Origin: Trypanosoma brucei
Taxonomy: Eukaryota
Reading direction: 5' to 3'
Assembly: GCA_000002445.1 (NCBI GenBank)
Contig: CH464491.1
Span: 4,352,001 to 4,416,000 of the forward strand
DNA: 64,000 bases
Both the position numbers and the translations under genes were made by a program. Positions within the stretch are counted from its first letter, which is position 1, and each line of letters opens with the position of its first letter. This document shows positions 30,364-42,828 of the stretch, piece after piece. The notes under the pieces were generated by a model that was not told where the DNA came from, did no database searches, and saw only the letters and a program-made list of their open reading frames with translations.

Positions 30364-33255
30364 TTATAGGTGGAACTCCTCTACGTCCTTATGCGGTTCC
30401 CCGGCGTAGCATTTGTTGCTACCATCCGCCGTGCCTCTTCTCGAGGCAACATCATCGTTGTCCCCCGACAACGCATTGGAATCTTCGTCCCTCACAGCAG
30501 AGGAACGGCGCCGGCGTCGAATGTCATCACCATCATCTGTCATGCAGTCCTTTACCCTCTTTGGTTTTGTGGAGGATATAAGTGTCGTCGGCTTCAACGC
30601 CCCACGTGTCTTCCGCCTTGATGACGGGCCATCCTTCGAAGCATTTGTTTGTCGCGTTTCCTTTCGCTGCAGCAGCAGCGATTCCCGTAGCGACAATTCT
30701 TGAAACGGCCCGCCAGTGATAACACTACCCTGAATTGAAGAAGGGACTACGCCCGAAAGAAGAAGCAACAGGCCCTTACCGCGCAGTTTGTCCCTCGTGT
30801 CTGTATTAGAAATAATACTGCTGTGATGAGATTTCGCAAACGCAATGAGCGGAGTTGGTGACAATATTTCCTTCACCTCCTCGTCACTCAGGCCCTCCTG
30901 CAACATAAGCGTATGCAACGCGAGCACCACCTCGGCGGCGATGATGCCACTGGCAAAGCGCTCGCACACGTCGTTCGCACGCTCAAGCAAAAGTTCACGG
31001 TGCTCCTGCTTGCACGGTGCCTCGGTAAGTGCGGCAAGCGTTCCCGCTATGAGATGTGTTTGCGCAGCACCCGCACCTGAAAGGGAATGGAGACAAATGG
31101 CCTGAAGCGGTGGGTGCCACTCAGGTCGCAGAAGGGCTGGGCGCAGCTGTACGATGGCACTCGTGATGGAAATGAACTGAGCATCGGTGAGCATGGCGCC
31201 TGCCGCACTGGACGTACCTGAAGCATTAATAACAGCAGTTTCCTTACGACCAGTGTCATTACAGGATTCTCGCCTCTGTAGCTCGTTCCCAAGAACTTCT
31301 GCGGTGGCCGAAAGCAATTCCTCATGGTCGAGCTTAAGGGCCCGCAACGAGCCCATGCAGCTTGCAAGCTCCTCGCCTTTGAAACTTGGTAGTATGTTGA
31401 GAGCGCGGTCGCAGAAGGGCACTGTCACTTCAGCATGACGGGTGATGCCAAGCTTTACCGAGCTGTACAGAAGTAATACAATGTCGCGCGCGGTTGCGTG
31501 ACTTGCAGAGACACGCAGACGTGGCATCATCTGCTGTACAACTCGAATTACACCCTTTAGAACGAAAGTGAATGCATACATAAGCATGCAAAGGTCGTGC
31601 ACAGTGGCATTTGCAGCCTTCTCCAGTATGTGTGTTGCTGTTGCCGAGTAAAATTCCACGTCATTGAAACCCAAAGTTGCGCACTGCAACAAAATATTGA
31701 CAAGCTCAGGAGCATCAAAACGAGACGGATTGCGCCTCGTGAACTCCACAACTACCAATAATAAATCATTGAATGGAAGACGACTACGCGTGAGGGCCTC
31801 CATCAGCAGAATCGCCTCTCGCGCCACAAGCTTCCGAGACCAGTTCTTCTGTGAAGAAAGCGAAGTGAATAGGTCAGGCAAAAATGTCTTCTTCGCCATA
31901 GGGAGGGGCGCAAGCATTGCAGCTAGTTCCACCTGAACCCGAAACGGGGCGTTCGCCGCGGCAACCGATATCATTGGCATGTGCTGCTCCAGCAGGGTTG
32001 GACCACCGTATGCACGCAGTGCCAACATAACACCAACAACAAGCGGCAATCGCCGCACATCCACGCTCGCAGTCACGTCACCAAATTTCATGTCACGCAC
32101 CAAAACTGTGTAGAAGTGTGTGGGCTGCTTGTCTGCGGGAAACAATTTTAACGCACCATCGGCAAGGTTCAGTAACCGATGGCCATAAACTGTTAAAGCG
32201 TCCTCCACACAAGCATCCATAAGCTCACACAAGGGCGCAGCAGCAGCGGCAAACCATTCGCGCTTCTCGAAACGCATCATGAGCCGCATGAGAGCTGTTG
32301 TGCGGGACACGTTCGGGGCGGCATTGTGTAGCCCCTTCAACCGTAACGCAATTGCTTCCATAATCTCCGCATGCATCACCTGCTTTACCTCACATTTATG
32401 CAGCATATCAGTCAATTGCACTTCGTCGGCCGCTTGCACAGCCTTCAGCATCGATTGCACAAAAGCAGCGACTACTGAAGGATTTAATGCGCCCTTTGCC
32501 TCAGCAGTCAAACTGGAGGGGCCGCCTTCCGCCCTGTGATCGCGTCGCGCTCGCGCCGGTGACATCGCAGCCAGTGCACTTTCAAAGCCTTCAGCCGACC
32601 GAGCAGAGCTTGCAGCGAGCAGCGATACGACGGGCATTTCTAACCCCCTGTAACATTCAATTACAGCACTTAGATGCTCCATAGAAATGTACGATGAAGG
32701 TTGAGCACAAATGTGCCGCTCTGCCACAACATAGAAGTCAGGGTAGTGCACTCTCCTCTCGTAAAAGCACTCGATGATACGGTAAAGCTGTTGCCCAGTA
32801 AAACCGTCCATCCGTCTAATGCAATGCTCGGCCAGGAGAGACCACGTGTCCTCATGCCGTACCCCCGCCGCAGCCAGTGAGTCAATTAGCTGAACAGTCC
32901 CCGTGCTATCCATACTCGGCAGGGCTTCAGAGAGTAGTGGCAGAGCGGAGAAGGAGATATCGTTTTGCCCCAACATGCAGCAGGCGGCAATAGTTCGTGA
33001 GAGCTGCCCACCAGTCATACGCGGCAGTTCTGCTCTTACCAATGCAACGGCCTTCGCCGCGACGGGGCTCTGCTCAAGCTGGAAGTAGGCAAGGCACTCC
33101 AAGAGTCGCCGAAGAGCGGACGGACCCGGGGAAGGCCCAACGCTAAGCTCTAACGCGGTAAGTTTTTCCTTTAGAGCGTGTCCTAGTTTCTCATCGAGTA
33201 CGACACTGTGTATCTTCTTTAGGTGGTACAAGTCATGAATCACGCGAGTTAACAT
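30364..33255 (-). CDS. Hypothetical alpha-helical protein (963 aa) with a basic/acidic disordered C-terminal tail
   Basis: ATG verified at 33253-33255. Long ORF with ordinary composition. No confident family assignment from the sequence alone. Confidence 0.75.
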   Translation of the reverse strand: MLTRVIHDLYHLKKIHSVVLDEKLGHALKEKLTALELSVGPSPGPSALRRLLECLAYFQLEQSPVAAKAVALVRAELPRMTGGQLSRTIAACCMLGQNDISFSALPLLSEALPSMDSTGTVQLIDSLAAAGVRHEDTWSLLAEHCIRRMDGFTGQQLYRIIECFYERRVHYPDFYVVAERHICAQPSSYISMEHLSAVIECYRGLEMPVVSLLAASSARSAEGFESALAAMSPARARRDHRAEGGPSSLTAEAKGALNPSVVAAFVQSMLKAVQAADEVQLTDMLHKCEVKQVMHAEIMEAIALRLKGLHNAAPNVSRTTALMRLMMRFEKREWFAAAAAPLCELMDACVEDALTVYGHRLLNLADGALKLFPADKQPTHFYTVLVRDMKFGDVTASVDVRRLPLVVGVMLALRAYGGPTLLEQHMPMISVAAANAPFRVQVELAAMLAPLPMAKKTFLPDLFTSLSSQKNWSRKLVAREAILLMEALTRSRLPFNDLLLVVVEFTRRNPSRFDAPELVNILLQCATLGFNDVEFYSATATHILEKAANATVHDLCMLMYAFTFVLKGVIRVVQQMMPRLRVSASHATARDIVLLLYSSVKLGITRHAEVTVPFCDRALNILPSFKGEELASCMGSLRALKLDHEELLSATAEVLGNELQRRESCNDTGRKETAVINASGTSSAAGAMLTDAQFISITSAIVQLRPALLRPEWHPPLQAICLHSLSGAGAAQTHLIAGTLAALTEAPCKQEHRELLLERANDVCERFASGIIAAEVVLALHTLMLQEGLSDEEVKEILSPTPLIAFAKSHHSSIISNTDTRDKLRGKGLLLLLSGVVPSSIQGSVITGGPFQELSLRESLLLQRKETRQTNASKDGPSSRRKTRGALKPTTLISSTKPKRVKDCMTDDGDDIRRRRRSSAVRDEDSNALSGDNDDVASRRGTADGSNKCYAGEPHKDVEEFHL

Positions 33256-33951
33256 GTCAATCGGTATTATACTCCTTTTCTGGCAGCGTTCACTTCCCCC
33301 ACGCCCATGCTGCGCGTTTATTTAGCAAATGTTAAATGTAGTAATATACCGCCGCCAACGCCCACCGCGTGCACGAGTCGGCAATAAAACATGAAGAAGA
33401 GGAGGAAGAGGGAGATAAAAGGATAAACCTGATACGCTAAAAAGTGGGGACAACAAATTTTCATAAACAGTGGTGTGGCATCACCATGCACACACACACA
33501 ACTAACTTCAAGGATACTGACAGTCAATAACTCCAGACTCGACGACCGCCTAAACCCCAAATTATCAAATGTTAAAAAAAAAGACAAGAACACACGAAGA
33601 GCAGCTACGATATTTTCACTGCTTTTCATATGAAGTACTAATAACAAAACATGTGGACGCAAAACTGTGGATTTGCGGGTGCGTCTGGGCTCACCGTAAC
33701 TATTATTTGGTGCCCAAGAAGGTAAAACGGCTACGACTGAGACGATAAACAAGTAGTAATGATGATAGGTGAAAGGAGTTCATAACAACACAACGAAGAA
33801 AGTCGAGGGAAAGCAAAGTGGAAATAGTCAAATAACGGAACACGTATGGTACGTAGAACAGCATGGCACGTCCACACGTCCACACGCCCGCACGCACACA
33901 CACACACAAACACACAAAAACAGAGAGAGCGAAAAATCACCGGGTTCATTA

Positions 33952-34308
33952 CTACAGTGGGTTGTTGGATCCACGCGGACCTCCCTCCGCCCATGACGGC
34001 TTTGGAATTTCACCCTCGCGAAAATTCTTCACCTGCTCTACCGACCACTGGCGCGCTTGCATCTTCTGCACTTCTACCGACTGCGCTGCTTCCTCCTTCT
34101 TTTCTTGAATCTGTCGCGCGGTATGTTTGATACCGGCACCGAGGTCAATACCGAAGAAAATCATCACAAAGAAGAACATGGCCACGCCAGACCAGGGAAT
34201 ACACCTAAAGGCTGCAGCCAGTGCGCTCTCCTGCCTTTCCCTTTGCGCCAACACATGGCGCTCCCAGCGGCGCAGCTTCAGAAAGTCGCAGAACATGCGA
34301 ACCCCCAT
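33952..34308 (-). CDS. Candidate small membrane protein (118 aa) with a single strongly hydrophobic helix (VAMFFFVMIFFGIDLGAGI) followed by a charged tail
   Basis: The first real ATG is at 34306-34308; the track start at 34425 is GTG. The ORF is a GC-normal island of about 55% GC inside AT-rich low-complexity DNA. Just upstream on the coding strand (34310-34400) is a poly-pyrimidine tract followed by AG, as expected for a trans-splice acceptor. Confidence 0.45.
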   Translation of the reverse strand: MGVRMFCDFLKLRRWERHVLAQRERQESALAAAFRCIPWSGVAMFFFVMIFFGIDLGAGIKHTARQIQEKKEEAAQSVEVQKMQARQWSVEQVKNFREGEIPKPSWAEGGPRGSNNPL

Positions 34309-34690
34309 TACGGTTACTCGGTGACTCACTATTACAACAAAGCTCTTTCCTTCCCCCCCTTTTTTTTTCGAAATAATAATAATAATAAACAAAAAGAAAC
34401 AAAGGTAGACGCATGAGTAATACACTTTTTGAAAGGATACAATGCATCAAACGAGTTGTATACGTACAAATACACAGAGGGCACGAGTATCCGTGCATCC
34501 GTAAATATTCGTAGGAGTGAAACATATAAACCCCGGTACAAATGGATGTACATGGACACAAAACAACAGGTGATTGCACAGACTGCATGTTTTGTGTTTG
34601 TATCGCGTGCGCATGCTTACGTGTATATGTGTTTGGTGCTTGTGTTTGCGTACTTGTTTGTATATTTATTTCTTATATGTATAAATACGC

Positions 34691-34715
34691 ATATATATAT
34701 ATATATATATATATA
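34691..34715. repeat. (TA)12 microsatellite
   Basis: Direct read. Confidence 0.9.
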
Positions 34716-36106
34716 AGCTTCGATGTGTCAACAGACACTAGTCACACATAGCCACACTCTTGTGCAGGAAACATAAAAATAAAATTATTAAAAAAAAAAC
34801 AACAACACTCACCTCCAGCGTCGCTTAAAAGGCAACAGACGGTGAACTCTTCGCCTCAACCTTCTTCTTCGCTCCTTCTCTTCTTTTTTTTTGTTTTTTG
34901 CTTACCTTTCGTTTGCTTCCTGCTAGCGATGTCATTTCCTTCCTCTTCCCTTCAACACTCGTCCTCACCATACACAAACAAAATACAGGGACGCCGTCCC
35001 CCACCATCCATGCCGTCCGAGGAAAAAAAAAAAACATCAACAACAACAACAATAATAAAGAATGCAACACAAAACACGAACTCACACTCGTACATTAAAT
35101 ATAACAATTATCATTTGTCCTCCCTTTCCCACATGGGCCAGCAGTATTTAAGCGAGGAGAACAACAACGTGCTAAAGGCAAAAATCTAATGCAACAATTA
35201 CTCATTGTTAACATCTTCACACAAACAAACACATGGATGTATAAACTGCGCATACAAATATGAGTAAATGTAAACATATATTTATTCATACTTATGTTTG
35301 TGAGTTTGTGAATTTGCGACGTACATTTATGCTCATGCGTGGGATTCTAATGTGGTGGACGAAACAAAGATGTACGTTTCTTTTTTTTTTTCCTTCGTAA
35401 GTATGTAATTGAGTGACAGAGCTTAATCAGCTCGGTTAGACCGTGTTTGAGGAAGTGAAGGCAAATATAAACAAAAACAGGAAAAGGAAAAGGAAGATAA
35501 ACGAAAATGAAAATGAAAACACGAAACAGCAGGAAAAAAAAAATCGGTACATCTAACAACGAAAACAAAAAACAAAAAACAAAAAACAAAAAAAACACCG
35601 GCTAATTTTCTCTTCTCTGTCCCTTCGTCACCGCCACCACCATCTCCCCCTTCTTTAATTTATTTATTTTTTTTCTTCGCTCATGTTAGTTTCTTCTTCT
35701 TATGTTGCTGCAGTGCCGTAGAGCCATATTTCACCTTTTGTATTTTTGTGTTCATCGAACCTCATGGCATGAAATGCGGCGGCATGCTGCAACTCATAAT
35801 TAATGAAAAAAAAAACAAAAACAGCAGGGGATGAGAGGTTGAGGATGGGAAGAAAAGTAAATGAGAGAAAGAAAGAGGTGAGGCGGAGCTTTAAAAAAAG
35901 GCGTGAAATAAAAAAAAAAGGAAAGCAAACAAACAAACAAACAAACACACGGAGCAGAAGGATGCGAAAGAAAGAATGAATGAATGAAAGAAAAAATAAA
36001 ATTGAAAAACAAAAACAAAAACAAAAACCATCCGACAACTACTAACCTGTACAACTGTAAACGGCATATTGGGATTATTTCATTTACTTTGAGCGCATTC
36101 ATACGT

Positions 36107-36187
36107 GTATATATATATATATATATATATATGTGTTGAGTTATTCACCTTTTCCTCTTTTCTCTCGTGTGTGTGTGTGTGTGTGTG
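36107..36187. repeat. Compound microsatellite: (TA)13 at 36107-36132, then a spacer, then (GT)10 at 36167-36187
   Basis: Direct read. Confidence 0.9.
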
Positions 36188-37977
36188 CGGGTGGCATTCT
36201 TCTAAAAATAAAACAGGTGAGACACGAGTAAACGAGCAAATGAAATATGTGGTGTGTGTGTGGGGGGGGGGAAATCTGTGGCATCGGTATCATAAAGGAT
36301 GCGTCTAAGTGATCTAAGCAGATACCAAAGCAAACAAAAAATAAAGTTAAAAAAGAAAGAGAAGGAATGGACTGGACTGGACTGGGTGGTAAGAAAAAGA
36401 AAAGAAAGAAAAGAGAAGATGTACTGAAACAAAGTCGAAAGAACAAATATATCCGACACAAATGTGTGAATTGCTTCTTCCCTCCCCTCCCTCCTTCCCC
36501 TTTTCTTTCTGTTTCATTTTCTTCTTCCATTCTAATATTACCTCTCCCTTTCACCACAACATAATTTTTTTTTAAAAGAAAGAAAGAAAAGGTGGAAAAA
36601 AAAAAAGAGTAGCCGCACCGAAGCAACAACGCCCGTACAGAAATACAAACGCACACGCACGAACACAAGCCAAAAACAATTTAAAAAAAGGCAGAAGAAG
36701 CTGGAACAGTGAACAAACACACGTGGCACACACGAAAGCGACCACACGTGTACAAACAAAACAAAAACAAGAAAAAGAAAAAGAGGGGAACAAACACAAA
36801 ACACTCAAAACACTCAAAACACAAAACACTCAAAACAAACACACACGCGCATACGTGAAACAACCAAAGATGCGCAGATATCGTATAAATATACACAACA
36901 ACATACGCAGCAAGTGGTTGCCTTTTTTTTAAAAAAATTAATTGGTGTTGTTGCTGTTGTTTCTTCTTGACAGTTCTCACTATTTTCTTTCCTTTTGCTT
37001 TCCCTTGACAAAATTCATGCATCTAATGTAAAATAAAAACGTAAAGAAAAGTGAGGAAGGGTAAAACCAAGAAAAGGAAGGAAAGAAAGAAAGAAAAAGA
37101 CTAAGTAAGTAAGTAAATAAGAATACGTAATCTGATTCTTTAAACTTACCGACTGCCTCTTTCCCCTTCCTTTTGTGTTTCCCTTTCCTCCTGTGTATCA
37201 CTTCTTCTATACAACTCGTTTCCTCTTCTCCATCACAACATCTGTTGTCTGCTCTTTCTCTTTCTCTCTCTCTCGCTCTTCCCCACATTTTCTTTTCTTT
37301 CTCTTTTCTTTTCTACTTACAAAATATTTAGTTATTTAATTATTTGTAACTTTTTTCTCCTTTCTCTTTGTGTTCTGTTTGCGTTTGTTTGCTTGTTTGA
37401 GATAATTATTTCCTCTTTGGAACTCCTCTTTCTCTCTTTAGTTTACCCCTCTCCATACGACTGTTTGGGTCATTTCCTCCCTCACACTTTTTCCCATGCC
37501 TTTATTTCATTTATTCATATAAGTATATATATATATATGAATGATTTCCTCTTTTCTCCGAGGACTTCTCTTCTCTCTTTCCTCCCTTTTGTTCTTCCCT
37601 TCTCTCTTTTTTTTTGTTTTGCTTTCTTTTTGCTTTTACTAACGGTATCTTGAGGAGAGAAAAGAAAAATTTCTTCTCAAAATCGCCGCTCCTAAAGCCA
37701 ACAAAAGGCCTCAACATCTGATGGCCAACAAACGCCAAAAAAAAAAAACGCACACGACGAGGGAAAAGAATAAAGAAAGAGGGAGAGTGCCCACCTCGAA
37801 GCAAAACGAAAAGGAAAAGGAAATAAACCCAAACTCCAGAATGCGGTAAAGAAAAGATGTCGATGGAGGGTTAAAACAAAAAGAACAAACAAGAAAGGGA
37901 ACAAACAAAGAAGCACGCAACACACCACAACCAAACACAAGACATTTTACACAGCAGAGTGTAACGAAGTAAACCAA

Positions 37978-39258
37978 TCAAAAGTCAGGTACTTCACTAG
38001 GCATAGTCAGTTTAGCCACTTCACCATACTTTGAGCTGCTGTACTTGCGACGCACCGATTGGTAACGCGTTGTGGAGACGTAACTCACAAAATCTAACAT
38101 GGTCCTCGCGCACGCCTTGAAATCACGTACTTGAGCCTTACTGTAGTACTGAAGCTGACGAGTCCATATGATATCGTTGTTCAGCACATACGATGAGCCT
38201 TGCTCTTTCATGTGTAGTGTCACTAGTGCAAGAAACAAGGCGGCCTTTGCTTGCTGCGACGGGGAGAACTGAAGGCATTTGTAATCAAGCATGCCGTGGT
38301 CAAGAAAAAAGAAAGCGGTGTGCCGAAGCTGTAGAACATATGCCGTGCATTCCTCATCAGAGCGCGGCTGCGAACGCGACTGTGAGCGGGAACGCGACAG
38401 AGATTGTGGTTGTGACTGTGATGCTTGCATTTGTGTCTGTTGAGATTGAGATTGCGACTGCGATTGGATCTGCTGTAGCTGATGTGACAACTGTTGCGTC
38501 TGCTGCTGCCGCTCGAGGCCCTCAACAACGTCAAGTAATCGAACAATGAAAGGAAACGGCGTTGGAACAGTAAAGCGGAAGGACAGCTCAGTGCACATCT
38601 CACGTTCCATGCGAATGACCTCATCACGAGTGTAGGTATTGGCACATATGTACACGCACTCCTTCACCTCCGGAGGCCATATCTCTTCGTACTTGGCAGC
38701 AAGAAGAATGGCGGTGATACCAACTAACTGCAGCTTTGAACGCGGTATGTACCGTCCGGTCGTACGCCTCGTGTTAACAGAAGAAAGGTAGCGGTCTACG
38801 ATGCTCACCGTGAGGTAAAGCGTCTCGGGATGTAGTTTAAACTTTAGGTGAACGTCAATAAGCCAATCGACGAGAATCATTCGCATTTTCTCGTTTATCT
38901 CTGGCTGGTACGTTAAATAGCGGGGTGACGGAAGGACCTGACCGTATATAGCCTCCTTCTCACTTTCCATGTACATTGTTGTGATGTCCTTAATAACATC
39001 GCTGCAGTATACCGGATTATTCTCACGAAGCCGGTCAGCATGAGGGCTTACAGATGACTCCTTCCCTGCCGTACCTACGGGGCTGTAGAGACTTGAGCGA
39101 AGGCTTAACAAACTGCCGGAGCCGTGTCGCACAGCGCTGGATGAGTAAGGATAACGACACGACTCTAAATTAGCGCTGCGCCGCTGAGCAAGTCGCTGCT
39201 TCACATCTCCAGAACCTGTGGACAGGTTTGAGACCTCACGAAGTGCCGTGGGATTCAT
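37978..39258 (-). CDS. B-type (mitotic) cyclin, 426 aa, with a Q/SQ/RS-rich low-complexity insert between the two cyclin folds
   Basis: ATG verified at 39256-39258. Cyclin-box signature: MRMILVDWLIDVHLKFKLHPETLYLTVSIVDRYL. Insert: RQQQTQQLSHQLQQIQSQSQSQSQQTQMQASQSQPQSLSRSRSQSRSQPRSDEE. Sitting next to a dihydrolipoamide dehydrogenase gene resembles the CYC6 neighbourhood I recall on T. brucei chromosome 11. That is from memory and not verified. Confidence 0.88.
   Translation of the reverse strand: MNPTALREVSNLSTGSGDVKQRLAQRRSANLESCRYPYSSSAVRHGSGSLLSLRSSLYSPVGTAGKESSVSPHADRLRENNPVYCSDVIKDITTMYMESEKEAIYGQVLPSPRYLTYQPEINEKMRMILVDWLIDVHLKFKLHPETLYLTVSIVDRYLSSVNTRRTTGRYIPRSKLQLVGITAILLAAKYEEIWPPEVKECVYICANTYTRDEVIRMEREMCTELSFRFTVPTPFPFIVRLLDVVEGLERQQQTQQLSHQLQQIQSQSQSQSQQTQMQASQSQPQSLSRSRSQSRSQPRSDEECTAYVLQLRHTAFFFLDHGMLDYKCLQFSPSQQAKAALFLALVTLHMKEQGSSYVLNNDIIWTRQLQYYSKAQVRDFKACARTMLDFVSYVSTTRYQSVRRKYSSSKYGEVAKLTMPSEVPDF

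Positions 39259-41355: not shown

Positions 41356-42828
<1,473 letters not shown>

What the first reader, a model, noticed from the sequence alone, without database searches (positions are those of the whole stretch)
33952..34308. Compositionally distinct small ORF (118 aa, single TM) hidden in the low-complexity tract
This is a roughly 55% GC island inside AT-rich repetitive DNA. It is on the same strand as the transcription unit and has a real ATG. A poly-Y tract plus AG lies directly upstream, as a trans-splice site would require. It encodes one strongly hydrophobic helix followed by a Gly-containing GIDLGAG motif and a charged tail. Small single-TM proteins such as mitochondrial or ER complex subunits are often missed in annotation. 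No ORF track entry starts at its ATG.
Basis: seen in the sequence. Interest (0 to 1): 0.5.

Follow-up and report, generated by a model that had tools for sequence, protein, structure and literature searches.

The report
Known small trypanosome mitochondrial membrane protein
The small open reading frame is a real gene, already annotated in Trypanosoma brucei as Tb927.11.16710: a 118-residue single-pass protein of the mitochondrial inner membrane, conserved in all kinetoplastids, whose function nobody has yet worked out.

Summary
Window 33952..34308 (minus strand) is an ATG-started 118-codon ORF of 55.5% GC between flanks of 37-44% GC. A pyrimidine tract plus AG lies about 50 nt upstream. The protein has one hydrophobic helix ending in FGIDLGAG and a charged tail.

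It is not a missed gene. The protein is 100% identical to T. brucei TREU927 EAN80616.1 / UniProt Q381B5 / Tb11.01.8440 / Tb927.11.16710, "hypothetical protein, conserved". Orthologues (53-77% identity) occur in Trypanosoma, Leishmania, Porcisia, Angomonas and Bodo. More distant relatives (about 22-40% identity) come from uncultured kinetoplastids. Wherever the contig reaches far enough the order is LipDH - cyclin 6 - this gene - RESC6-like protein; shorter contigs still keep the RESC6-like neighbour. Non-synonymous change is far below synonymous change (pN 0.18-0.25, pS 0.57-0.81).

Published proteomics detects the protein (up to 68.6% coverage). hyperLOPIT places it in the mitochondrial inner membrane in both bloodstream and procyclic forms.

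No Pfam, PDB sequence or fold match was found. It does not co-purify with the TIM translocase and is absent from the published new complex II-IV subunit lists. A COX16 resemblance failed profile-profile testing.

The best reading is a kinetoplastid-specific accessory membrane subunit that docks through its glycine-rich helix to an unknown partner. The gene is already known; the function is open; interest is modest.

The parts
33952..34308 (-). Coding sequence of Tb927.11.16710: 118 codons plus a TAG stop at 33952-33954. Product is 13.6 kDa.
   Evidence: Translation. 100% identical to EAN80616.1 / Q381B5. ID link Tb11.01.8440 = Tb927.11.16710 = Q381B5. Purifying selection.
34237..34305 (-). N-terminal helix, residues 2-24, basic, with the near-invariant RxWE (W15). 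Predicted to lie on the matrix side.
   Evidence: AF2 helix 2-24 with pLDDT about 94. W15 present in at least 90% of sequences. N-terminal part carries net charge +4, against about +2 after the TM.
34132..34194 (-). Transmembrane helix, residues 39-59. It opens with the invariant P38-W39 (the P38 codon, 34195-34197, lies just outside this range).
   Evidence: Hydropathy. AF2 pLDDT 92-96. Invariant columns.
34132..34155 (-). Family signature F52-G53-x-D55-x-G57-x-G59 (FGIDLGAG). This is a GxxxGxG glycine-zipper-like face with an invariant Asp at the exit of the TM helix.
   Evidence: F52, G53 and D55 are invariant and G59 is present in at least 90% of 35 sequences spanning 22-77% identity.
33973..34059 (-). 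Conserved C-terminal segment, residues 84-112 (QARQWSVEQVKNFREGEIPKPSWAEGGPR). It covers the end of the long helix plus the REG..P.P motif. G99 is invariant. Predicted to face the intermembrane space.
   Evidence: Alignments A1, A2 and A4. The AF2 helix continues to residue 97 and the chain is then unstructured.
34369..34409 (-). Polypyrimidine tract upstream of the gene, a putative trans-splicing signal.
   Evidence: 80% pyrimidine over 40 nt. Comparable tracts plus AG lie 50-80 nt upstream of the ATG in T. cruzi and L. mexicana. Function is inferred and was not measured.
34359..34360 (-). First AG after the pyrimidine tract, the candidate spliced-leader acceptor. It would give a 5' UTR of about 50 nt.
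   Evidence: Sequence reading. Inference only.
34309..34425 (-). In-frame upstream extension from GTG 34425. It is AT-rich and most likely 5' UTR or intergenic sequence, not coding.
   Evidence: Annotated orthologues start at or within four residues of the position of ATG 34308. The 158/159-aa versions come only from automatic calls on short Logan contigs.

Best explanation
The feature is the nuclear gene Tb927.11.16710 of Trypanosoma brucei, transcribed within the minus-strand polycistron. Its mRNA is most likely trans-spliced at the AG about 50 nt upstream of the ATG. The product is a 13.6-kDa protein that is made, imported into the mitochondrion and anchored in the inner membrane by one transmembrane helix. 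This is shown for both bloodstream and procyclic forms.

The following steps are inferred. The basic N-terminal helix stays on the matrix side. The long helix and the conserved REG..P.P tail face the intermembrane space. The strictly conserved PW...FGxDxGxG face of the transmembrane helix packs against the helix of a partner, or against copies of itself. On this reading the protein acts as a small accessory, stabilising or assembly subunit of an inner-membrane machine present in both life stages. That excludes a role restricted to complexes III and IV. The partner is unknown.

My confidence that it is a real, expressed inner-membrane protein is about 0.97. My confidence in the accessory-subunit mechanism via glycine-zipper helix packing is about 0.4-0.5.
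For: - Identity: 100% match to EAN80616.1 / Q381B5. Accessions are consecutive with the neighbours EAN80615 (the 963-aa protein, Tb927.11.16700, confirmed by the TrypTag primer that encodes its C-terminus) and EAN80617 (cyclin 6, Tb927.11.16720). A published table states 'Tb11.01.8440 / Tb927.11.16710 / Q381B5 / 13.612 kDa' explicitly.
- Coding status: orthologues at E 1e-32 to 1e-54 in Trypanosoma, Leishmania, Porcisia and Angomonas, and Bodo in the profile search. The order LipDH-cyclin-gene-RESC6-like is kept in L. mexicana, T. cruzi and three metagenomic kinetoplastid contigs; three shorter contigs still show the ~900-1260-aa downstream neighbour. pN is 0.18-0.25 against pS 0.57-0.81.
- Expression and location: up to 68.6% sequence coverage by mass spectrometry. 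hyperLOPIT TAGM-MAP assigns 'mitochondrion - IM' with probability 0.9995 in bloodstream forms and 1.0 in procyclic forms.
- Architecture: helices 2-24, 29-35 and 39-97, mean pLDDT 80.7. P38, W39, F52, G53, D55 and G99 are invariant across 35 sequences. Three of those six lie in or at the start of the TM helix, as expected for specific helix-helix contacts. The N-terminal part has net charge +4 and the C-terminal part is near neutral.
Against: No partner or complex has been identified. The protein is not enriched in TbTim17 or TbTim13 immunoprecipitates (ratios about 1.2). It is not among the complexome- or cryo-EM-derived new subunits of complexes II-IV. It is not in a published table of euglenozoan OXPHOS subunits. 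It matches no PDB chain. Topology rests only on charge bias and prediction. The N-terminal helix is not strongly amphipathic. A free-standing role, for example as a small homo-oligomer affecting lipids or ions, is not excluded. Trans-splice site usage was not measured.
Confidence: 0.7

Rival explanations
1. It is an as-yet-unassigned peripheral or substoichiometric subunit, or assembly factor, of an OXPHOS complex present in both life stages: complex I, complex II, or monomeric or assembling ATP synthase.
For: The protein is in the inner membrane in both bloodstream and procyclic forms, as complexes I, II and V are. It has a GxxxGxG-type TM like the small ATP synthase subunits. Recent work shows that g-like proteins bind only ATP synthase monomers and so escape the dimer structures.
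Against: It is absent from published candidate lists for complexes II-V and from the NDUTB/SDH table. It matches no PDB chain, and by established knowledge the PDB includes the T. brucei and Euglena ATP synthase and respiratory complexes. It was not found in the supplements held for the ATP synthase Fo-subunit RNAi study, though those files may be cut.
Confidence: 0.2
2. It is a highly diverged kinetoplastid COX16, an assembly factor that helps metallate COX2 and merges the assembly modules of cytochrome oxidase.
For: Size and layout are similar: a single TM followed by a charged helix, then KNFREG..P.PSW against KNIRGPRPWE in COX16. hhalign of A1 against vertebrate COX16 aligns exactly TM-to-KNFR over 59 columns.
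Against: That alignment is not significant (probability 0.6%, E 0.09). With the broader profile A2 the probability is 0.2%. None of 26 members hits Pfam COX16 PF14138 at E<=10. An iterated profile search recovers no COX16. The protein is present in bloodstream forms, which lack complex IV. The COX16 profile was built from vertebrates only, so the test has limited power.
Confidence: 0.06
3. It is a component of the trypanosomal TIM/PAM protein-import machinery.
For: It is a small inner-membrane protein expressed in both stages. Its level falls slightly after TbTim17 RNAi (mean about 0.77-fold).
Against: The fall is not significant (p about 0.16). It is not enriched in TbTim17 or TbTim13 SILAC immunoprecipitates (about 1.2). 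It is depleted, not enriched, with the stalled carrier intermediate (0.29). It behaves as a substrate, not a subunit.
Confidence: 0.03
4. It is a chance ORF or non-coding GC island in intergenic DNA, or a small ER/secretory-pathway subunit.
For: ORFs of this length occur by chance: 40 in the window, and in 6% of shuffles of the region. No Pfam family matches.
Against: Deep conservation, synteny, purifying selection, peptides covering up to 68.6% of the protein, and a mitochondrial inner-membrane assignment. No Rfam family lies in 33000-38000.
Confidence: 0.01

Closest known systems
Tb927.11.16710 (Tb11.01.8440; UniProt Q381B5; EAN80616.1) and its kinetoplastid orthogroup (T. equiperdum TEOVI_000506400, T. 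cruzi TcG_00053, L. mexicana CBZ29733.1, Bodo saltans 'membrane-associated protein')
   Same: Identical sequence, the same neighbours, and the same length and start codon. This is that gene.
   Different: Nothing differs. The database entries carry no function.
COX16 (Pfam PF14138), cytochrome c oxidase assembly factor
   Same: About 110 aa, one TM helix, and a charged helix followed by a short Arg/Gly/Pro/Trp motif. Also a mitochondrial inner-membrane protein.
   Different: No significant sequence or profile similarity. The signature FGxDxGxG and PW are not COX16 features. The protein is present in a life stage without complex IV.
Small single-pass inner-membrane subunits that use GxxxG-type helices (ATP synthase subunits e/g/k, EMRE of the calcium uniporter, and Mic10, which has two TM helices)
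   Same: Small size, and a glycine-spaced face in the TM helix that is the most conserved part of the protein. They may work in the same way, by helix packing and oligomer or complex stabilisation.
   Different: No sequence or fold match to any solved chain. The invariant Asp within the motif and the REG..P.P tail are specific to this family. The resemblance is analogy from general knowledge, not homology.
Toxoplasma gondii complex III 80-aa 'transmembrane protein' (PDB 9G9T/9I4X chain J)
   Same: It shares an R..IPWS string just before its TM helix, and was the best PDB hit of the family profile.
   Different: E = 4.1, which is not significant. The match does not extend into the signature motif. 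The kinetoplastid complex III subunit lists are reported and do not include this gene.

Membership tests
Tb927.11.16710 orthogroup (kinetoplastid conserved hypothetical protein) | Sequence identity to the annotated T. brucei protein | tested here: met
   100% over 118 aa to EAN80616.1 / Q381B5. The ID is linked in the Harsman 2016 table.
Tb927.11.16710 orthogroup (kinetoplastid conserved hypothetical protein) | Conserved genomic position between cyclin 6 and the RESC6-like gene | tested here: met
   Neighbours are EAN80615 and EAN80617. The full order is the same in L. mexicana, T. cruzi and three metagenomic kinetoplastid contigs (L005, L006, L008); three shorter contigs show only the gene and its ~900-1260-aa downstream neighbour.
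Mitochondrial inner-membrane proteome of T. brucei | Experimental localisation to the inner membrane | tested here: met
   Taken from the literature, not measured here. hyperLOPIT TAGM-MAP gives 'mitochondrion - IM' with probability 0.9995 (bloodstream) and 1.0 (procyclic). One predicted TM helix.
COX16 (PF14138) | Match to the family HMM or profile | tested here: not met
   No Pfam hit at E<=10 for 26 members. hhalign probability 0.2-0.6%. The COX16 profile used was vertebrate-only, so power was limited.
COX16 (PF14138) | Required for complex IV (COX2) assembly | not testable with these tools
   Needs RNAi or knockout with BN-PAGE. Presence in bloodstream forms, which lack complex IV, argues against a dedicated role.
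Structurally resolved subunits of kinetoplastid or euglenozoan OXPHOS complexes | Sequence match to a chain in a solved complex | tested here: not met
   phmmer and two profile searches of all PDB chains gave nothing below E = 0.7. Foldseek gave 0 hits. The L. tarentolae CIII/CIV entries of late 2026 may not be in the PDB copy, but their new subunits are listed in the paper and differ from this gene.
TIM translocase of T. brucei | Co-purification with TbTim17 and reciprocal baits | tested here: not met
   Published SILAC-IP ratios are about 1.2, meaning not enriched.
Trans-spliced trypanosomatid mRNA | Mapped spliced-leader acceptor site downstream of a polypyrimidine tract | tested here: inconclusive
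   The tract at 34369-34409 and AG at 34360/59 are present, and analogous signals occur in T. cruzi and L. mexicana. No RNA data were available.

The most novel reading that the evidence does not exclude
The family is a kinetoplastid-specific, constitutively expressed small subunit or assembly factor of an inner-membrane machine that current structures and complexome analyses have missed. Examples would be a factor bound to ATP synthase monomers or assembly intermediates, to fragmented complex I, or to a kinetoplast-linked membrane structure. The invariant PW...FGxDxGxG helix would be its docking element.
Probability: 0.25. Interest if true: 0.45.

Novelty: already known. Interest (0 to 1): 0.22.

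Why it matters
As a scan result it is a true positive: sequence reading alone picked out a genuine 118-codon gene in AT-rich intergenic DNA. The gene is nonetheless already in the reference annotation and in several proteomes, so nothing new is added to the gene catalogue. What remains open is the function. This small inner-membrane protein is found only in kinetoplastids as far as these searches can see. It is conserved from free-living bodonid-like kinetoplastids to human pathogens, and it is present in the bloodstream stage, where the mitochondrion is stripped down. Parasite-specific, constitutively expressed mitochondrial membrane proteins are of some interest for understanding the unusual kinetoplastid mitochondrion. 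That interest is modest until a phenotype or partner is known.

Tried and rejected
- Pfam on the protein and on 26 family members at E<=10 gave only scattered, inconsistent weak hits.
- PDB sequence searches with the protein and with profiles A1 and A2 gave nothing significant. The best was T. gondii CIII chain J at E = 4.1, which I rejected.
- The COX16 hypothesis, raised from memory of the human sequence, was tested with hhalign and an iterated profile search and was not supported.
- An apparent homologue in 'Colponema vietnamica' suggested a family wider than Euglenozoa. I rejected this. That sequence is 70% identical to one lying in a typical kinetoplastid syntenic block, so it is probably prey contamination.
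- Literature searches for the gene, old ID, UniProt, XP/EAN and orthologue IDs found no main-text mention anywhere.
- Supplements of the protein complex map, the ATP synthase Fo study and the kDNA screen do not contain the gene in the stored (partly truncated) text. The two 2026 complexome papers have no supplements held. The stored TrypTag table is cut and does not show this gene.
- The bacterial promoter/terminator scan is irrelevant for a trypanosome. Rfam found nothing in 33000-38000.
- The neighbouring 175-aa ORF (36141..36668) is spurious.

Full report
**Observation.** Window 33952..34308 read on the minus strand is an ATG-started ORF of 118 codons ending in TAG. Its GC content is 0.555. 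The 0.7 kb towards the next gene has 0.44 and the 3.7 kb upstream has 0.366. GC by codon position (0.60/0.42/0.65) resembles that of the large neighbouring genes. All large ORFs of the window lie on the minus strand, so the ORF is on the strand of the transcription unit.

Upstream on that strand, a 40-nt tract of 80% pyrimidine (about 34369-34409) is followed by the first AG at 34360/34359, 52 nt before the ATG. The protein has one hydrophobic stretch (residues ~39-59) ending in FGIDLGAG, then a K/E-rich region.

Length alone would not be convincing. The window contains 40 ATG-ORFs of at least 118 aa, and 6% of shuffles of the intergenic region produce one.

**Identity.** The protein is 100% identical over its full length to a Trypanozoon protein carried as EAN80616.1 (T. 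brucei TREU927, 'hypothetical protein, conserved'), UniProt Q381B5 and T. equiperdum TEOVI_000506400. The 963-aa ORF downstream is EAN80615.1. Its C-terminus is encoded by the TrypTag tagging primer listed for Tb927.11.16700 / Tb11.01.8430. The 426-aa ORF upstream is EAN80617.1, cyclin 6, Tb927.11.16720. The CLC channel two genes further downstream, next after the 963-aa gene, is Tb927.11.16690. A published proteomics table states the link outright: 'Tb11.01.8440 / Tb927.11.16710 / hypothetical protein, conserved / Q381B5 / 13.612 kDa'. The window is therefore T. brucei chromosome 11 and the ORF is an annotated gene, not a missed one.

**Is it really coding?** Orthologues of 114-120 aa with 53-77% identity (E 1e-32 to 1e-54) exist in T. 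cruzi, T. vivax, T. grayi, T. theileri, T. rangeli, T. conorhini, Leishmania, Porcisia and Angomonas. Bodo saltans appears in the profile search. An exhaustive HMMER search of 1.84 billion cluster representatives finds 16 clusters in total, down to about 22% identity.

In L. mexicana and T. cruzi the gene sits in the same order: DnaJ - LipDH - cyclin - gene - RESC6-like protein. The six distant metagenomic relatives I could place all keep the gene next to a ~900-1260-aa downstream neighbour, which carries RESC6 marks in three of them. The three longest contigs also show LipDH and cyclin upstream. All of these are therefore kinetoplastids.

Between T. brucei, T. cruzi and L. mexicana, non-synonymous differences per site are 0.18-0.25 and synonymous differences are 0.57-0.81, which is saturated. 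Annotated orthologues start at or within four residues of the position of ATG 34308, so the upstream GTG extension in the mechanical ORF list is not coding. No Rfam family lies in the region.

**Expression and location (from the literature).** In SILAC proteomics of procyclic mitochondria the protein was seen with up to 68.6% sequence coverage. In the hyperLOPIT spatial proteome, the TAGM-MAP classification is 'mitochondrion - IM' with probability 0.9995 in bloodstream forms and 1.0 in procyclic forms. This rejects the ER alternative. It also shows that the protein is present in the stage that lacks complexes III and IV.

**Anatomy.** With a 35-sequence alignment AlphaFold gives mean pLDDT 80.7. 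It predicts helix 2-24 (pLDDT ~94), a short helix 29-35, and one long helix 39-97 whose first 21 residues are the transmembrane segment (pLDDT 92-96). Residues 98-118 are unstructured.

Across the whole family the invariant positions are P38, W39, F52, G53, D55 and G99. W15, G59 and R97 are near-invariant. The best-conserved elements are therefore the two ends of the membrane helix (PW ... FGxDxGxG) and an R-E/D-G turn followed by P.P. The N-terminal part carries a net charge of about +4 and the C-terminal part is close to neutral. By the positive-inside rule this suggests N-terminus in the matrix and C-terminus in the intermembrane space. That topology is an inference.

**What it is not.**
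- No Pfam family matches the protein or any of 26 relatives.
- No PDB chain matches by sequence or profile. The best is a T. gondii complex III chain at E = 4.1, which does not cover the signature motif.
- By established knowledge the PDB contains the T. brucei ATP synthase dimer and the Euglena respiratory complexes, so the protein is not a resolved subunit of those.
- It is not one of the four new T. brucei complex III subunits (Tb927.3.700, Tb927.11.16510, Tb927.10.4240, Tb927.5.2560).
- It is not among the complex II-IV candidates or the L. tarentolae cryo-EM subunits.
- It is not in a tabulation of euglenozoan-specific OXPHOS subunits.
- It is not enriched with TbTim17 or TbTim13. Its level falls only slightly, and not significantly, after TbTim17 RNAi.

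**The COX16 lead.** By eye the layout resembles COX16: a TM, a charged helix, then KNFREG..P.PSW against KNIRGPRPWE. I retrieved real COX16 sequences and ran profile-profile comparisons. The alignment reproduces the resemblance, but with probability 0.2-0.6% and E 0.09-0.29. An iterated profile search never reached COX16. I therefore do not file the protein as COX16. The vertebrate-only profile limits the power of that test.

**Most likely mechanism.** These steps are shown: the gene is real, the protein is made, and it resides in the mitochondrial inner membrane in both life stages.

These steps are inferred. The mRNA is trans-spliced about 50 nt upstream of the ATG. The protein is imported and laterally released with an N-in/C-out orientation. 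The conserved glycine-spaced face of its helix, with the invariant Asp at the membrane exit, packs against another helix. The C-terminal REG..P.P segment provides a second contact on the intermembrane-space side.

Conservation concentrated in the membrane helix is typical of small accessory or assembly subunits such as ATP synthase e/g/k, EMRE or Mic10. This is an analogy, not homology. I therefore commit to 'small accessory or assembly subunit of an inner-membrane machine that is present in both stages', at a confidence of roughly 0.4-0.5. The partner is unidentified. The main rivals are an unassigned OXPHOS-associated factor (a specific version of the same idea), a diverged COX16, and a TIM component. 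The last two are disfavoured by the data above.

**Novelty and verdict.** The gene is already known: it is annotated, detected by mass spectrometry and localised. Its function is uncharacterised, and no paper in the searchable library mentions it in the main text. As far as exhaustive sequence searches can tell it is restricted to Kinetoplastea. The single non-kinetoplastid label, 'Colponema vietnamica' in EukProt, is 70% identical to a sequence embedded in kinetoplastid synteny and is best explained as prey contamination. Interest is modest and rests on the open function.

Noticed in passing
P0035 (EukProt EP00744_Colponema_vietnamica_P015416); locus L005 10001-10522: The only family member labelled as non-kinetoplastid is 70% identical to a protein on a 25.6-kb contig (SRR7467761). 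That contig has typical kinetoplastid gene order on one strand: TCP1, an unannotated 498-aa gene, La, DnaJ, LipDH, cyclin, RRM, a 141-aa gene, the small gene, a 1044-aa gene. The Colponema transcriptome entry is therefore probably contamination from a kinetoplastid, perhaps its prey.
   Followed up: partly
Loci L005-L009 and the contig of P0031: The pair 'small membrane protein followed by a ~900-1260-aa neighbour (RESC6 marks in three of six contigs)' is kept in every kinetoplastid contig examined, including very divergent ones at 22-34% identity. The longer contigs also keep LipDH and cyclin upstream. This is an unusually deep microsynteny marker for placing metagenomic kinetoplastid contigs.
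   Followed up: partly
window 30364..33255 (-): The downstream neighbour is Tb927.11.16700, a 963-aa protein. UniRef names it 'RNA-editing substrate-binding complex 6 protein domain-containing', although hmmscan against Pfam-A gave no hit here. hyperLOPIT places it in the mitochondrial matrix. Two adjacent genes of the polycistron are therefore mitochondrial.
   Followed up: partly
window 36141..36668 (-): A 175-aa ORF in the long AT-rich spacer between cyclin 6 and the small gene. It has GC 0.40, no codon-position bias, a low-complexity translation, and no tblastn match in T. cruzi, L. mexicana or bodonid-like loci. It looks spurious.
   Followed up: yes
L005 8154-9926 and L006 7313-9378, compared with window 34309-37977: The bodonid-like contigs carry an extra RRM-domain gene (361-363 aa) and, in L005, a 141-aa gene with a tblastn match in L006, between cyclin and the small gene. 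No remnant is detectable in the 3.7-kb T. brucei spacer or in T. cruzi or L. mexicana. This implies lineage-specific gain or loss.
   Followed up: partly
window 33885-33915, 34691-34715, 35562-35593, 36108-36132, 36797-36837: Microsatellites in the spacers: a (CA)n run just downstream of the stop codon, (AT)12.5, (AAAACAA)4.6, (TA)12.5 and a 9-nt repeat. These are typical trypanosome intergenic low-complexity DNA.
   Followed up: no
window 37978..39258 (-) and 41356..42789 (-): The upstream genes are cyclin 6 (CYC6, Tb927.11.16720) and a 477-aa pyridine nucleotide-disulphide oxidoreductase that I read as dihydrolipoamide dehydrogenase; assigning it to Tb927.11.16730 rests on gene order and its mitochondrial-matrix hyperLOPIT entry. 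They fix the window to T. brucei chromosome 11.
   Followed up: yes
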